A stretch of 64,000 nt of DNA from Armatimonadota bacterium (GTDB lineage Bacteria > Armatimonadota > DTGP01 > JAKQQT01), in the NCBI GenBank assembly GCA_036504855.1, contig DASXUL010000075.1, positions 12,655 to 76,654 of the forward strand, read 5' to 3'. How positions within the stretch are numbered: position 1 is the first letter of the stretch; each line of letters starts with the position of its first letter. The translations under genes and the position numbers were made by a program. Of this stretch, positions 10,048 through 12,235 are shown piece by piece. Under the pieces are notes generated by a model, which was not told where the DNA came from, did not search any database, and was given only the letters and a program-made list of their open reading frames with translations.

Positions 10048-11217
10048 CTACCCGCCCATCTGGTCGGTCCACCAAGCTCTGAAGCGTTCCCACGTGGTCA
10101 TCGGCGGCGGCGCGGGCGGCATCTCCCGCAGACGTCGCTCGGCGTCTTCCTTCACTTGCGCCACGACATCCTTCGGCGCGTGTTCCAACGCGCCTTCCAG
10201 TCCGTTCGCCACGGCGCGGCCGGTGTCTGGCCCCGCCGAAGCGGCCTGATCGAAGGGCACGGCCACCCGGGCGCGCAGAGACTCCATGCCCTTGGGCGCC
10301 GCGTAATCGGCCTGCGCATCGACCGCCCGGATTTCGCCCAGATAGTACGCGGGCGCCTTCGGGTTCAGCGTTTCGGCGCGGCGGAACTCTCGCGCGGCCT
10401 CCTGGTGATCGCCCGCGGCGGCGAAGGCGGCCCCGAACCGGGCGAACTCCTCGGCGCGGCGCCGGCGATCCGCCGCCGCGTTGGGTCGCAAGGCCGTCTG
10501 CAACGCCAGGGCCGCCAGAAGGGCCAGTATGAGAACGTTCTTGAAGCTCAATGGTCGCGCGTCTCTTTCCGCATTGGCCGGCCGCGGGGATTCCGTCCAC
10601 TTCGAGCGCTTCGCGAGCGTCCGAACCCGCGCTCGGTCGCTTCGATGGCCAAACATATAGTAGCCCGGCGCGGGCTCCACCCGCCCGTCGCGCCAGGCGA
10701 AGAAGTCGCGCGTGCAGGCGATCGGGTCCACCACCAGCCCGACCATGGCCGGGTCCGCGAAGAAGTTGCGGTGGATGAACTGGTCCTGCTCCGAAAAGAA
10801 CACGCCCAGGCCCGGGTGGGTGTGATACCAGCCCACGATTTGCAGGTTCGGGCAGTGTTCCTCGCGATCCGCGTTCAGGGTCTGCCACGTCTCGTGCGTG
10901 AACGTAAGCTCGGTGCGCGTTTCGGCGGCGGCGCGGGCCGGCAGGGTTCTCTCAATGAGCACGTACTCGCCGTCGCCCGATGCGTAGACGCCCCCCAGAA
11001 GAACGCCGCCCACCTCCGCCTTCGGCGAAGCGGCTGCGTGGAACTCAACCGATGCCAGTGCTTCGTACTGGATGTAGACGGGGATCGCCACCATCGCCGG
11101 GGTTCCCACCGCGGTCACATGGGTCCGGCGTTCCTCCGAGGGCGACGGACGGCGCTCCGCCTCGCGGCGGCCCCGTTCGTTTCCCAATCGGATGTCTATG
11201 TCATCGTGGCCGGGCAC
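10048..11217 (-). CDS. JAB/MPN (JAMM) metalloprotease domain protein with a TM segment and a C-terminal TPR-like helical region (JAB-1)
   Basis: JAMM motif E...GWYHTHPGLGVFFSEQD. Hydrophobic helix 'VLILALLAALALQTAL'. Helical C-tail. Confidence 0.7.
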   Translation of the reverse strand: MPGHDDIDIRLGNERGRREAERRPSPSEERRTHVTAVGTPAMVAIPVYIQYEALASVEFHAAASPKAEVGGVLLGGVYASGDGEYVLIERTLPARAAAETRTELTFTHETWQTLNADREEHCPNLQIVGWYHTHPGLGVFFSEQDQFIHRNFFADPAMVGLVVDPIACTRDFFAWRDGRVEPAPGYYMFGHRSDRARVRTLAKRSKWTESPRPANAERDARPLSFKNVLILALLAALALQTALRPNAAADRRRRAEEFARFGAAFAAAGDHQEAAREFRRAETLNPKAPAYYLGEIRAVDAQADYAAPKGMESLRARVAVPFDQAASAGPDTGRAVANGLEGALEHAPKDVVAQVKEDAERRLREMPPAPPPMTTWERFRAWWTDQMGG

Positions 11218-11230
11218 GGCGCTCCCTCCG

Positions 11231-12235
11231 CTATGGCTTCGCGGCCAGGGTCTTTGCCAGGTCTTCAGATGGAAGCAAGAGCCTTCCGCCCACAGTGAGG
11301 GCGTTCGGATCCTGAATGTGGTTCAGCACGCGGATGGCTTCCGCGGCGCGACCGTCGCCGTACTGCGCGCTGGCGATTTGCCAGAGGCTGTCGCCGGGCC
11401 GAACGGTGTAAGCGCGGCTCCAGCTCGATGTCGCCTTCGGCGCGGGCGCCGGGGCGATTGCGGCCGGCGGCGGCTCCTCGCGCTTCCCGGCGGGCGGCGC
11501 GGCGGGCGCCGGAGCCGCCGCCGGAACCGTGACGGTTCGCACTACCACTCGTTCGACGATTCGTTCTCGTGGGGGTCGAAAAAAGGCCATGTAAGCCACC
11601 CCCAGGGCCACGCCGACCACAACCCCGCCAGCCACCAGGGCGGCGCGGGCCATCTGGTAGGCCGCCGGAATCGGCTGGCCGGGTGGAATCGGAGCAAGGC
11701 GCGTCGGCGCGGGTTCCGCGGGCGGGCGGTCTGCCCGCTCCACCTTGCCGTCCTCCCAACGGAAGAACCCCCGCGTCTTTCCGATGGGGTCCACCACATA
11801 GGCGATCTGCCACGGTAGGTTGAAGAAGTTGTGCTGGATGAAGAGGTCCCACCGCGAGAGGAAGATCCCGAATCCGGGGTGCGTGTGGTACCAGCCCACG
11901 ATCTTCAGGCCGGGGTACTGCTCGTCCTTCACGCGATGGATGTCATCCCAGGTTGCGTGGGTGAACTTAACGCTGGTGCTCACGGCCTCGGTGTGTTTGG
12001 CCTCGATAGCGGCGGTAACGCGCACCAGGGGGCGAGGCCCGTCCGTGCGCAGCTCGCCCAACAGCACGCCGCCCAGTTCCCGGGTGGTGTCGGTCTGCGC
12101 GAACTGCTCGATGGAGGCGGCGACGGCCGGATCCATCCAGATTTCCGGACGATCGCCGGAGGGTTCAACGGGAGCCAGCGTGATGTCCAGATCCACGTCT
12201 TCCTCATCCCGATGGCTGGGTTCCGGCGTTGTCAT
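11231..12235 (-). CDS. JAB/MPN (JAMM) metalloprotease + TM + C-terminal LysM peptidoglycan-binding domain (JAB-2)
   Basis: The true start is the ATG at 12235 (MTTPEPSH), which has a GGAAGGAA RBS. The longer ORF-track version overlaps the E1 gene. JAMM motif 'GWYHTHPGFGIFLSRWD'. LysM 'YTVRPGDSLWQIASAQYGDGRAAEAIRVLNHI...LLLP'. Confidence 0.7.
   Translation of the reverse strand: MTTPEPSHRDEEDVDLDITLAPVEPSGDRPEIWMDPAVAASIEQFAQTDTTRELGGVLLGELRTDGPRPLVRVTAAIEAKHTEAVSTSVKFTHATWDDIHRVKDEQYPGLKIVGWYHTHPGFGIFLSRWDLFIQHNFFNLPWQIAYVVDPIGKTRGFFRWEDGKVERADRPPAEPAPTRLAPIPPGQPIPAAYQMARAALVAGGVVVGVALGVAYMAFFRPPRERIVERVVVRTVTVPAAAPAPAAPPAGKREEPPPAAIAPAPAPKATSSWSRAYTVRPGDSLWQIASAQYGDGRAAEAIRVLNHIQDPNALTVGGRLLLPSEDLAKTLAAKP

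What the first reader, a model, noticed from the sequence alone, without database searches (positions are those of the whole stretch)
10048..12235. Tandem JAB/MPN isopeptidases with opposite-side appendages: one with a periplasmic LysM, one with a TM plus helical tail
Both carry intact JAMM motifs (E...HTHPG..S..D). JAB-2 has a TM helix followed by a Pro/Ala-rich linker and a canonical LysM peptidoglycan-binding domain. This implies a cytoplasmic deconjugase physically tethered to the cell wall. JAB-1 has a TM helix and a TPR-like helical tail. A LysM fused to a deubiquitinase-like enzyme suggests the system is positioned at, or senses, the envelope.
Basis: partly seen in the sequence, partly recalled or inferred. 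Interest (0 to 1): 0.65.

Follow-up and report, generated by a model that had tools for sequence, protein, structure and literature searches.

The report
Membrane-anchored deubiquitinase pair, one with LysM
Two neighbouring genes encode Rpn11-like "deubiquitinase" enzymes, each followed by a membrane helix and an outer domain (one a peptidoglycan-binding LysM), inside a conserved, experimentally untested bacterial ubiquitin-like operon built at the cell membrane.

Summary
JAB-2 (11231-12235, minus strand, 334 aa) has a JAMM domain, one hydrophobic helix, a Pro/Ala linker and a canonical LysM. JAB-1 (10048-11217, minus strand, 389 aa) has a JAMM domain, one hydrophobic helix and an all-helical tail. 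Both keep the catalytic residues, and both resemble Caldiarchaeum and eukaryotic Rpn11.

They are not an oddity of this window. They sit in a 12-gene operon from an Armatimonadota genome:
- a YukD-like ubiquitin-like protein (Ubl) ending ...EITAG plus one residue
- an E1 and two E2s
- four RING proteins, all with predicted membrane helices
- an HtrA-like protease
- a polytopic FHA protein

JAB-helix-LysM is a large family: at least 579 genome loci and 2,406 clusters at E<=1e-30. It is the only JAB in compact five-gene operons of Clostridia. The adjacent pair recurs in other Armatimonadota.

A cytoplasmic JAB with an external LysM is the best reading, but topology is inferred. The charge rule supports it across the family and is reversed in this window's own clade. 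"TPR-like" is weak and "opposite-side" is not supported.

The operon kind was predicted computationally in 2011 (recalled, not read here), and LysM-associated JAMMs were noted in 2018. I found no experimental work on it. A docking-like motif, DD[LIF]DIxL, is shared by most enzymes of the operon and may not have been described.

The parts
11231..12235 (-). JAB-2: JAMM isopeptidase + membrane helix + Pro/Ala linker + LysM (334 aa)
   Evidence: Pfam JAB 1.6e-11 and LysM 5e-9. 100% identical to Armatimonadota protein P0001. AF2 model.
12176..12205 (-). JAB-2 N-terminal acidic/hydrophobic motif EEDVDLDITL (aa 11-20), predicted disordered
   Evidence: Conserved at the N-terminus of JAB-LysM homologues from Armatimonadota to Clostridia. 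pLDDT<50.
11732..12145 (-). JAB-2 MPN/JAMM catalytic domain (aa 31-168)
   Evidence: pLDDT>90. Foldseek best hit is the Caldiarchaeum Rpn11 homologue 6fnn, E=4e-11, TM 0.77. The profile hits Rpn11 at 2.6e-14.
11846..11887 (-). JAB-2 JAMM motif H117-T-H119-x7-S127-x2-D130 (general base E53 upstream)
   Evidence: Invariant columns in alignment A1. Present in 120/120 homologues.
11579..11644 (-). JAB-2 hydrophobic membrane helix (aa 198-219)
   Evidence: Kyte-Doolittle 2.2. AF2 helix 191-218. Hessa sum +0.5 kcal/mol, next best segment +11.
11420..11578 (-). JAB-2 juxtamembrane FRPPRERIVE stretch plus Pro/Ala-rich spacer (aa 220-272)
   Evidence: Low pLDDT. Spacer length across the family is 27-78 aa, median 49.
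11270..11419 (-). JAB-2 LysM domain (aa 273-322)
   Evidence: Pfam full-length match. Beta-alpha-alpha-beta at pLDDT>95. Y276, D282, I287 and N305 are invariant. Aligns to the LysM sequences of 4uz2/4uz3, YaaH and LytE.
10048..11217 (-). JAB-1: JAMM isopeptidase + membrane helix + helical tail (389 aa, GTG start)
   Evidence: Pfam JAB 1e-8 and Prok-JAB 6.9e-9. Shine-Dalgarno GGAGGGA upstream of the GTG. The N-terminus is conserved in homologues.
11182..11205 (-). JAB-1 N-terminal motif DDIDIRLG (aa 5-12)
   Evidence: The motif [DE][DE][FIL]x[IV]x[LV]G sits at the extreme N-terminus across JAB-1 homologues. It is missed by the 348-aa database gene call P0121.
10606..11157 (-). JAB-1 MPN/JAMM domain with N-terminal strands (aa 21-204); JAMM H132/H134/S142/D145 at 10783-10824
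   Evidence: AF2 pLDDT about 95. Foldseek hits CSN5 and the Caldiarchaeum Rpn11 homologue (30-32% identity, TM 0.78). Invariant columns in A2.
10489..10545 (-). JAB-1 hydrophobic helix (aa 225-243)
   Evidence: Kyte-Doolittle 1.87. AF2 helix 225-243. 111/120 homologues have a hydrophobic segment after the JAB domain. It is weaker than the JAB-2 helix (Hessa sum +3.1).
10057..10479 (-). JAB-1 all-helical tail (aa 247-387), with one TPR-like hairpin near aa 259-302
   Evidence: Seven helices at pLDDT>95. TPR_2 E=0.008, below the cut-off. Only the membrane-proximal hairpin aligns across homologues.
13513..13785 (-). Context: YukD-like ubiquitin-like protein (Ubl), 90 aa, ending ...LRLLPEITAG-A
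   Evidence: Pfam YukD 1.8e-12. The C-terminus ...PEITAG/...PEVVAG plus 0-6 extra residues is conserved in most of 64 loci.
12274..13512 (-). Context: E1 (ThiF family), N-terminus MADDLDITLG
   Evidence: Pfam ThiF 5.2e-54.
14731..15237 (-). Context: second E2 (E2b), hidden under a spurious long ORF; HPN...C motif; C-terminus SDISISLGDSR
   Evidence: phmmer against E2a 3.6e-26. Pfam UQ_con 7e-11. Sequence.
13847..14734 (-). Context: HtrA/DegS-like serine protease (295 aa). Signal peptide, protease domain, membrane helix, then a KGRRRPKR tail ending DDLDIELK
   Evidence: NCBIfam degP_htrA 5e-55. The TTG start overlaps the E2b stop as TTGA. The C-terminal motif is present in 30/30 loci.
15442..17031 (-). 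Context: large RING protein with C-terminal membrane helices (start uncertain)
   Evidence: Prok-RING_1 6.9e-10. Membrane-helix candidates.
9390..10004 (-). Context: RING + two membrane helices
   Evidence: Prok-RING_1 1.7e-9. Membrane-helix candidates.
8591..9376 (-). Context: MshEN-like + RING + CD225 membrane domain
   Evidence: Pfam CD225 5.3e-21, Prok-RING_1 2.9e-7, MshEN 1.1e-6.
7753..8556 (-). Context: RING + membrane helix + Pro-rich linker + helical outer domain
   Evidence: Prok-RING_1 1.9e-8. Arg-rich N-side flank and one membrane helix.
7096..7623 (-). Context: E2a (UQ_con, HPN...C), C-terminus DDLEIQLF
   Evidence: Pfam UQ_con 6.1e-9.
5937..7079 (-). Context: polytopic (about 6 helices) membrane protein with C-terminal FHA domain
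   Evidence: Pfam FHA 8.2e-8 and Yop-YscD_cpl 2.1e-11. Fused to the E2 in 15 Clostridia loci.

Best explanation
JAB-2 and JAB-1 are two single-pass inner-membrane, Rpn11-like zinc isopeptidases. They serve a self-contained ubiquitin-like conjugation operon organised at the cytoplasmic membrane.

Shown:
- Both have complete JAMM sites and an MPN fold.
- Each has one hydrophobic helix followed by a C-terminal domain.
- The JAB-2 C-terminal domain is a canonical LysM.
- They sit with a YukD-like ubiquitin-like protein (Ubl), an E1, two E2s, four RING proteins, an HtrA-like protease and a polytopic FHA protein.
- This gene set recurs across phyla.

Inferred mechanism:
- The JAB domains face the cytoplasm, where the ATP-dependent E1, the E2s and the Ubl must work.
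- They trim the residue(s) after the conserved ...EITAG end of the Ubl precursor so that E1 can adenylate it.
- They also remove the Ubl from targets modified by the membrane RING ligases.
- The helix places the C-terminal domains outside the membrane. The JAB-2 LysM, held on a spacer of about 50 residues, binds peptidoglycan. It thereby fixes the enzyme at the wall, or tunes it to the state of the wall.
- The JAB-1 helical domain provides a different outer contact.

JAB-helix-LysM is the core deconjugase, since it is the only JAB in compact five-gene operons. JAB-1 is an accessory paralogue of expanded operons.

A short disordered acidic motif (DD[LIF]DIxL) at the N-terminus of both JABs is also found on E1, both E2s, the protease tail and a RING protein. 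It probably docks all of them to one partner, most simply the Ubl.
For: - Domains and motifs.
- Fold: AF2 models, with best solved matches the Caldiarchaeum Rpn11 homologue, Rpn11, CSN5 and AMSH.
- Family size: at least 579 genome loci and 2,406 clusters at E<=1e-30.
- Context in 83 loci: E1 in 74, E2 in 68, Ubl in 64, RING in 52, HtrA-like in 30, membrane-FHA in 26.
- Compact operon Ubl-E1-E2-JAB.LysM-RING in Tindallia.
- The same order, with JAB-LysM immediately followed by a JAB-1 type gene, occurs in two other Armatimonadota genomes.
- Pairs of JAB-helix and JAB-helix-LysM occur in eleven Clostridia-type loci of the table.
- The Ubl ends in ...AG plus 0-6 variable residues in most loci, so a processing peptidase is needed.
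- Topology: family-wide positive-inside bias for JAB-in/LysM-out; a clear Lys-rich inner flank and acidic outer flank in Tindallia; a 27-78 aa spacer before LysM in 101 proteins. In distant JAB-1 relatives of alignment A2 I read a second hydrophobic stretch near the C-terminus; I did not score it.
- The docking motif sits on the cytoplasmic tail of the protease, after KGRRRPKR, in 30/30 loci, and on soluble E1 and E2. This places the JAB N-termini in the cytoplasm.
Against: - In the 17 closest relatives of JAB-2, K+R residues are more frequent on the LysM side of the helix (3.71 vs 2.47; 11 vs 2).
- The JAB-1 family shows no K+R bias, and its helix is only marginally hydrophobic by a simple Hessa sum (+3.1 kcal/mol).
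- A LysM can be cytoplasmic (Kbp).
- No enzymatic, binding or topology data exist for any member.
- The targets of the pathway are unknown.
- The partner of the docking motif is a deduction, not a result.
- Division of labour between the two JABs is unknown.
Confidence: 0.68

Rival explanations
1. Receptor-like deubiquitinase. The LysM is not only an anchor but a sensor. Binding of peptidoglycan or released muropeptides outside changes the oligomeric state or position of JAB-2, and so the level of Ubl conjugates inside. This resembles plant LysM receptor kinases or bacterial PASTA kinases. The HtrA-like protease and the JAB-1 outer domain would be further inputs of an envelope-damage response.
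For: - The architecture is bitopic, with a glycan-binding domain outside and an enzyme inside.
- Several operon proteins share the plan of a cytoplasmic Ubl-pathway domain, one helix and an outer domain.
- The protease belongs to the HtrA/DegS family of envelope-stress proteases.
- The FHA domain hints at phospho-signalling.
Against: There is no evidence of regulation. A single LysM usually binds glycan weakly and often serves simply as an anchor. Single-helix signalling needs dimerisation, which was not tested. This reading is not exclusive of the main explanation.
Confidence: 0.25
2. The LysM of this clade is cytoplasmic, either because the helix is inverted or because it does not span the membrane. 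It would then bind a cytoplasmic ligand such as a peptidoglycan precursor, or another protein, as the cytoplasmic LysM protein Kbp binds its ligand.
For: The charge bias is reversed in the window's clade, caused by a conserved F[RK]PPxx[RK][IV]VE stretch after the helix. Kbp appears among the LysM matches.
Against: - With one helix, a cytoplasmic LysM would put the JAB domain and its docking motif outside, away from E1, E2, the Ubl and ATP.
- An N-terminal domain of about 195 residues without a signal peptide is unlikely to be exported (established knowledge of Sec/YidC insertion).
- The remaining 100 family members obey the charge rule for LysM-out (p about 1e-9).
- The helix is strongly hydrophobic.
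Confidence: 0.1
3. The two JABs work as an obligate heterodimer, like Rpn11-Rpn8, CSN5-CSN6 or BRCC36-Abraxas. One subunit would be mainly structural or regulatory despite its intact motif.
For: The genes are adjacent and 13 nt apart. The adjacency is conserved in other Armatimonadota. The nearest folds are enzymes that act in MPN dimers.
Against: Both keep every catalytic residue, and so do their families. Compact operons manage with one JAB. Some operons have three. No interface was tested.
Confidence: 0.2
4. The operon is an anti-phage defence system related to Bil, Bub or CBASS Cap2/Cap3, and the JABs are its deconjugases or regulators.
For: The characterised bacterial E1/E2/JAB/Ubl operons cited in the papers read here are described as anti-phage systems (abstracts of PMC10557695 and PMC11601603). 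There are distant PADLOC hits of the E1 to Cap2-type E1-E2 and BilD, and of both JABs to defence JABs.
Against: - The PADLOC hits are weak and generic (JAB 7e-6, BilD 2e-9), and there are none for the Ubl, the E2s or the RINGs.
- There is no CD-NTase and no E1-E2 fusion.
- No relative was found on viral contigs.
- The flanking genes are ordinary and vary between genomes.
- The system has RING E3s and membrane components that the PADLOC defence models did not match.
Confidence: 0.15

Closest known systems
Caldiarchaeum subterraneum Ub / E1 / E2 / RING / Rpn11-homologue operon (PMC5654768, PMC6043591)
   Same: Both have separate genes for a Ubl, E1, E2, a RING E3 and an Rpn11-like JAMM. The JAMM trims a Ubl precursor and removes conjugates. 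CsRpn11 is the best solved structural match of both JABs.
   Different: I saw no membrane helix or LysM described for the archaeal enzymes. Here the Ubl is YukD-like and ends in AG rather than a ubiquitin-like GG (the archaeal GG end is from memory). Both JABs, all four RINGs and the protease carry predicted membrane helices, and there are two E2s and two JABs.
Prokaryotic RING-E1-E2-JAB-YukD-like Ubl operons predicted by Burroughs, Iyer and Aravind, Mol Biosyst 2011 (recalled from memory; the paper could not be read here; source of Pfam Prok-RING_1, Prok-JAB)
   Same: The gene set and Pfam families are the same. The window is an instance of this predicted kind.
   Different: I could not check whether the JAB-LysM fusion, the membrane organisation or the shared docking motif were described there. 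I found no experimental study of this operon kind in the held library.
"Bacterial lysM-associated JAMM sequences" mentioned in Fuchs et al. 2018 (PMC6043591)
   Same: This is the same domain association.
   Different: They were only named as a group left out of a cluster map "for simplicity". They were not analysed.
Bil (BilABCD), Bub and CBASS Cap2/Cap3 bacterial Ubl systems
   Same: All use E1, E2 and Ubl chemistry. Bil and CBASS Cap3 have a JAB deconjugase.
   Different: Those systems, as I recall them, have no RING E3 and no peptidoglycan-binding or HtrA module. PADLOC models match only weakly.
Plant LysM receptor kinases (CERK1/NFR1) and bacterial PASTA kinases (PknB)
   Same: All are single-pass proteins with an outer glycan/peptidoglycan-binding domain and an inner enzyme that edits a protein modification.
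   Different: The inner enzyme here is a JAMM isopeptidase, not a kinase. There is no homology outside the LysM. Signalling is hypothetical here.
Rpn11-Rpn8, CSN5-CSN6 and BRCC36-Abraxas MPN pairs
   Same: Two MPN-domain proteins are encoded or used together, with an Rpn11-like fold.
   Different: Both members here are MPN+ (catalytically complete) and membrane-anchored. Pairing is untested.

Membership tests
JAMM/MPN+ metalloprotease (Rpn11-like) | Catalytic Glu plus the HxHx7SxxD zinc site | tested here: met
   JAB-2 has E53/H117/H119/S127/D130 and JAB-1 has E68/H132/H134/S142/D145. These columns are invariant, or in at least 90% of sequences for H132, in A1 and A2. The motif is present in 120/120 and 118/120 homologues.
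JAMM/MPN+ metalloprotease (Rpn11-like) | MPN fold | tested here: met
   AF2 pLDDT>90 over both domains. Foldseek to 6fnn: TM 0.77-0.79, E 4e-11 and 3e-9.
JAMM/MPN+ metalloprotease (Rpn11-like) | Zinc-dependent cleavage after the C-terminal Gly of a Ubl | not testable with these tools
   This needs an enzyme assay. It is supported indirectly by the operon Ubl ending in AG plus a variable tail.
LysM domain (PF01476) | Profile match above the curated threshold over the whole domain | tested here: met
   36.4 bits against a cut-off of 20.9, covering profile positions 1-43 of 43. The family profile hits LytE LysM at 8.6e-18 and Ecp6 at 5.7e-16.
LysM domain (PF01476) | Beta-alpha-alpha-beta fold and conserved GD[ST]L / Asn glycan-groove residues | tested here: met
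   E273-277, H284-292, H295-304 and E318-322 at pLDDT>95. Y276, D282, I287 and N305 are invariant across 30 diverse members. It aligns to the LysM sequences of 4uz2/4uz3 with only a 2-3 residue loop insertion. That GD[ST]L and the Asn form the glycan groove is from established knowledge, not tested here.
LysM domain (PF01476) | Extracytoplasmic location next to peptidoglycan | tested here: inconclusive
   The family-wide charge bias and the spacer support an outer location. The window's own clade has the reverse charge bias. No topology predictor or experiment was available.
LysM domain (PF01476) | Binding of peptidoglycan or chitin oligomers | not testable with these tools
   This needs a pull-down or ITC.
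TPR repeat domain (JAB-1 tail) | Several tandem 34-residue helix hairpins recognised by TPR profiles | tested here: not met
   There is a single TPR_2 hit of 16.6 bits, below the cut-off of 27. AF2 shows seven helices of unequal length with one TPR-like hairpin. Only that hairpin aligns across homologues.
Prokaryotic E1-E2-RING-JAB-Ubl operon (Burroughs et al. 2011 kind) | Co-located beta-grasp Ubl with C-terminal Gly, ThiF-type E1, UBC-fold E2 with HPN...Cys, Prok-RING E3 and JAB | tested here: met
   YukD 1.8e-12, ThiF 5.2e-54, UQ_con 6e-9 and 7e-11, Prok-RING_1 four times, JAB twice. HPN...C is seen in both E2 sequences. The set recurs in 83 loci.
Known anti-phage Ubl systems (Bil, CBASS Cap2/Cap3, 6A-MBL) | Match to the system's own protein models and its signature partners (CD-NTase, E1-E2 fusion, BilA/B/C) | tested here: not met
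   PADLOC gives only weak generic hits (JAB 7e-6; E1 to Cap2-type 2.5e-20 over the adenylation core; BilD 2.4e-9). There are none for the Ubl, E2 or RING. NCBIfam 6A-MBL cap2_3 scores 41 bits against a cut-off of 320.

The most novel reading that the evidence does not exclude
The JAB-helix-LysM protein is a receptor-type deubiquitinase. Peptidoglycan or muropeptide binding outside the membrane controls removal, or maturation, of a ubiquitin-like modifier inside. The whole operon would then be a transmembrane, ubiquitin-based envelope-surveillance pathway in bacteria. Its outer modules are the HtrA-like protease, the LysM and the helical domains. Its inner modules are the E1, E2s, RINGs and JABs, all recruited through one SIM-like docking motif to the Ubl.
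Probability: 0.22. Interest if true: 0.85.

Novelty: new member of a known kind. Interest (0 to 1): 0.58.

Why it matters
The characterised bacterial ubiquitin-like systems I know of (Pup, CBASS Cap2/Cap3, Bil, Bub) are, from memory, described as cytosolic; I did not check this.

This operon kind has all five eukaryote-like parts: a Ubl, E1, E2, RING E3 and an Rpn11-like deubiquitinase. Nearly every enzyme is attached to the membrane, and three modules probably sit outside it.

The operon is widespread in Armatimonadota, Clostridia and Planctomycetota, including isolates with deposited genomes (Tindallia, Anoxynatronum, Singulisphaera, Tundrisphaera). I found no experimental work on it.

It therefore offers a tractable route to two questions: what a complete E1-E2-E3-DUB cascade does in bacteria, and whether ubiquitin-type signalling can be coupled to the state of the cell wall.

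The shared terminal motif, if it is a Ubl-docking element, would be a bacterial counterpart of SUMO-interacting motifs.

Tried and rejected
- Reading Burroughs et al. 2011 (by DOI and as PMC5938088) and the 2012 review (PMC5881585): neither is held. Prior description of the fusion could not be checked directly.
- Five full-text searches for an experimental study of JAB-LysM or YukD/RING operons: the only hit was the one-line mention in PMC6043591.
- TPR membership of the JAB-1 tail: rejected.
- Phage origin: no relative on viral contigs.
- Known defence system: no convincing PADLOC match.
- The 516-aa "trypsin" ORF and the 1173-aa RING ORF: rejected as called. The first hides a second E2 in another frame, and the protease starts at 14734. 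The second overlaps plus-strand CheY/CheX/CheA genes and must start near 17031.
- The database gene call of JAB-1 at 348 aa: rejected in favour of the GTG at 11217.
- Recent tandem duplication of the two JABs: rejected. They are 42% identical, and each is closer to its own family.

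
Full report
**Observation**

The interval 10048-12235 holds two back-to-back genes on the minus strand.

JAB-2 runs from an ATG at 12235, preceded by GGAAGGAA, to 11231.
- It is 334 aa and identical to a protein deposited from an Armatimonadota metagenome-assembled genome (P0001).
- Pfam finds JAB (1.6e-11), Prok-JAB, and a full-length LysM (5e-9, profile positions 1-43 of 43).

JAB-1 runs from a GTG at 11217, six bases after a GGAGGGA Shine-Dalgarno sequence and 13 bases after the JAB-2 stop, to 10048.
- It is 389 aa.
- Pfam finds JAB (1e-8), Prok-JAB (6.9e-9), and only a sub-threshold TPR_2 hit (16.6 bits, cut-off 27).

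Both carry the complete JAMM site: E53/H117/H119/S127/D130 in JAB-2 and E68/H132/H134/S142/D145 in JAB-1. The JAB domains are 42% identical. Each is much closer to its own family than to its neighbour. They are old paralogues, not a fresh duplication.

**Structure**

The AlphaFold2 model of JAB-2, built on a 30-sequence alignment, has mean pLDDT 79.7. It shows:
- an MPN domain at residues 31-168 (pLDDT>90)
- a long helix at 191-218
- a disordered Pro/Ala stretch
- a beta-alpha-alpha-beta LysM at 273-322 (pLDDT>95)

The JAB-1 model has mean pLDDT 89.4. It shows:
- an MPN domain with extra N-terminal strands (21-204)
- a helix at 225-243
- seven further helices up to residue 387

For both, the best solved matches are the Caldiarchaeum Rpn11 homologue (TM 0.77-0.79), Rpn11, CSN5 and AMSH.

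The JAB-2 LysM aligns with the LysM sequences of the Thermus endopeptidase (4uz2/4uz3), YaaH and LytE, differing only by a 2-3 residue loop insertion. Its GD[ST]L and Asn positions are invariant across 30 diverse family members.

**Surroundings**

The window is GC-rich and full of spurious ORFs. Codon-position GC and homology sort them out. On the minus strand the real genes are, in order:
1. A large RING protein with C-terminal membrane helices (about 17031-15442).
2. A second E2 (15237-14731), hidden under a spurious 516-aa ORF.
3. An HtrA/DegS-like protease (14734-13847). Its TTG start overlaps the E2 stop as TTGA. It has a signal peptide, a protease domain, a membrane helix and a basic tail.
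4. A 90-aa YukD-like Ubl (13785-13513).
5. An E1 (13512-12274).
6. JAB-2.
7. JAB-1.
8. A RING protein with two membrane helices (10004-9390).
9. An MshEN-like-RING-CD225 protein (9376-8591).
10. A RING protein with a membrane helix and an outer helical domain (8556-7753).
11. A first E2 (7623-7096).
12. A polytopic membrane protein ending in an FHA domain (7079-5937).

Sugar-metabolism genes follow downstream, and chemotaxis genes diverge upstream.

**Relatives**

The JAB-helix-LysM architecture is common.
- A word-indexed search returned 579 proteins.
They come from Armatimonadota, many Clostridia, Planctomycetota, Ca. Zipacnadia and Sumerlaeota.
- A full HMM scan of 1.8 billion representatives found 2,406 clusters at E<=1e-30. 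Most of the best 150 match the profile end to end.

In 83 loci examined, the JAB lies with an E1 in 74, an E2 in 68, the Ubl in 64, a RING in 52, the HtrA-like protease in 30 and the membrane-FHA protein in 26.

Tindallia californiensis has a compact operon, Ubl-E1-E2-JAB.LysM-RING. The LysM form is therefore the core deconjugase.

Two other Armatimonadota genomes keep the same order as the window, with JAB-LysM immediately followed by a JAB-1 type gene. Eleven Clostridia-type loci carry a JAB-helix-LysM plus a second JAB-helix gene.

The JAB-1 family (260 hits) keeps the JAMM motif in 118/120 members and a hydrophobic segment after the JAB in 111/120. Its tails vary, and only a membrane-proximal TPR-like hairpin aligns widely.

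**What the JABs probably do**

The operon Ubl is strikingly conserved across phyla. It ends in ...LRLQPEITAG (or ...PEVVAG in Planctomycetota), followed by nothing or by 1-6 variable residues. The window's copy has one extra Ala. That is the signature of a conjugatable Ubl made as a precursor, as in ubiquitin and in Caldiarchaeum, where the Rpn11 homologue does the trimming (PMC6043591). So the JABs are expected to mature the Ubl and to reverse its conjugation.

**Topology**

No topology predictor was available, so I used several indirect lines.

- Charge rule. Across 117 JAB-helix-LysM proteins, the flank on the JAB side has more K+R than the LysM side (3.57 vs 2.36, Wilcoxon p=3e-7). This fits JAB-in/LysM-out. 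The 17 closest relatives of the window's protein show the opposite (2.47 vs 3.71), because of a conserved F[RK]PPxx[RK][IV]VE stretch after the helix. The JAB-1 family shows no K+R bias.
- Hydrophobicity. The JAB-2 helix is a good membrane helix by a simple Hessa sum (+0.5 kcal/mol). The JAB-1 helix is marginal (+3.1).
- Spacer. A spacer of 27-78 residues (median 49) always separates the helix from the LysM. It is Pro/Ala-rich in some members and coiled-coil-like in others, as expected if the domain must reach the wall.
- Logic. E1 needs ATP, and E1, E2 and the Ubl have no export signals. The JAB N-termini carry the same short motif as those soluble proteins. With a single helix, a cytoplasmic JAB forces the tail outside.

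I put about 0.8 on LysM-out for this protein.

**A shared motif**

A short acidic/hydrophobic motif, roughly DD[LIF]DIxL, sits at a terminus of almost every enzyme of the operon:

| Protein | Position | Sequence |
|---|---|---|
| E1 | N-terminus | MADDLDITLG |
| JAB-2 | N-terminus | EEDVDLDITL |
| JAB-1 | N-terminus | HDDIDIRLG |
| E2a | C-terminus | DDLEIQLF |
| E2b | C-terminus | SDISISLG |
| HtrA-like protease | end of cytoplasmic tail | DDLDIELK |
| Large RING protein | just after the RING | PPIDLTLEP |

- It is conserved at the N-terminus of both JAB families across phyla.
- It is at the very C-terminus of the protease in 30/30 loci and on many E2s.
- It is present on all four enzymes of the compact Tindallia operon.
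- It is predicted disordered in both models.

In the compact operon the Ubl is the only component without the motif. The simplest reading is a SIM-like Ubl-docking strand.

**Comparison with known systems**

The gene set matches the operon kind that Burroughs, Iyer and Aravind predicted in 2011. That paper is the source of the Pfam Prok-RING_1 and Prok-JAB models, and it suggested that YukD-like Ubls are conjugated. I cite it from memory because the paper is not held.

Fuchs et al. 2018 name "bacterial lysM-associated JAMM sequences" only to exclude them from a map.

The closest characterised system is the Caldiarchaeum Ub/E1/E2/RING/Rpn11 operon, for which I saw no membrane or LysM modules described.

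Bil, Bub and CBASS Cap2/Cap3 share E1/E2/Ubl chemistry, but as I recall them they lack RING ligases and membrane or peptidoglycan-binding modules. PADLOC models match only weakly, and no relative lies on viral contigs.

By architecture, JAB-2 resembles LysM receptor kinases and PASTA kinases, with an outer glycan-binding domain and an inner modifying enzyme. This is an analogy of design, not membership.

**Verdict**

- the topology is unproven
- the TPR call is weak
- the two tails are on the same side of the membrane

The window's genes are new members of a known kind. That kind was predicted computationally, and I found no experimental work on it.

The interest lies in three things: a complete ubiquitin-type cascade organised at the membrane, the possibility that it reads the cell wall, and the shared docking motif. 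Carriers with isolate genomes exist, so all three are testable.

Noticed in passing
window 12176-12205, 11182-11205, 13483-13512 (E1 N-terminus), 7099-7122 (E2a C-terminus), 14734-14766 (E2b C-terminus), 13850-13873 (protease C-terminus); also loci L001-L084: A short acidic/hydrophobic motif, about DD[LIF]DIxL, sits at a terminus of E1, both E2s, both JABs, the HtrA-like protease tail and one RING protein. It is conserved across phyla, including 30/30 protease C-termini. It may be a SIM-like docking strand for the Ubl.
   Followed up: partly
window 13513-13785 (-): The YukD-like Ubl ends ...LRLLPEITAG plus Ala. In most of 64 related loci it ends in ...ITAG or ...VVAG followed by 0-6 variable residues. 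This is the hallmark of a precursor that must be trimmed before activation.
   Followed up: yes
window 14731-15237 (-) and 13847-14734 (-): A second E2 (UQ_con 7e-11) lies in another frame under the N-terminal part of a spurious 516-aa "trypsin" ORF. The real protease starts at a TTG that overlaps the E2 stop (TTGA). It is an HtrA/DegS-like domain lacking PDZ, with a signal peptide and a C-terminal membrane anchor.
   Followed up: yes
window 10048-11217 (-): The database gene call for JAB-1 (P0121, 348 aa) starts at an internal Met and cuts off the conserved N-terminal motif. The GTG at 11217, with a strong Shine-Dalgarno sequence, is the better start.
   Followed up: yes
window 11579-11644 flanks; homologues P0001-P0018: The charge bias around the JAB-2 helix is reversed in the window's own clade, owing to a conserved F[RK]PPxx[RK][IV]VE stretch on the LysM side. 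The role of this stretch is unexplained.
   Followed up: partly
loci L005, L010, L011, L013, L015, L018, L021, L022, L028, L030, L035, L038, L043, L056, L075: In 15 Clostridia-type loci the E2, the polytopic membrane segment and the FHA domain form one reading frame. This is a fusion of the window's adjacent genes at 7096-7623 and 5937-7079, and it ties the E2 to the membrane.
   Followed up: partly
window 8591-9376 (-): An unusual architecture: an MshEN/T2SSE_N-like domain, then a prokaryotic RING, then a CD225 (interferon-induced transmembrane protein family) membrane domain. A similar MshEN-RING gene occurs in L083.
   Followed up: no
window 15442-18963 (-) versus 17182-20825 (+): The 1173-aa minus-strand ORF is mostly spurious. 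It overlaps plus-strand CheY-like, CheX and CheA genes. The RING protein must start near 17031, leaving a divergent promoter region of about 150 bp.
   Followed up: partly
window 37217-41616 (+): A low-GC stretch (0.54 against about 0.65) encodes PAPS-reductase-like, DndB-like, methyltransferase and FRG-domain proteins. It is probably an acquired DNA-modification or defence islet.
   Followed up: no
locus L084 8044-8880 and 14285-16033: A related Armatimonadota operon adds an M48 (HtpX-like) membrane metalloprotease, a third JAB, a VWA protein and a second FHA protein. The operon kind therefore accretes further envelope-facing proteases.
   Followed up: no
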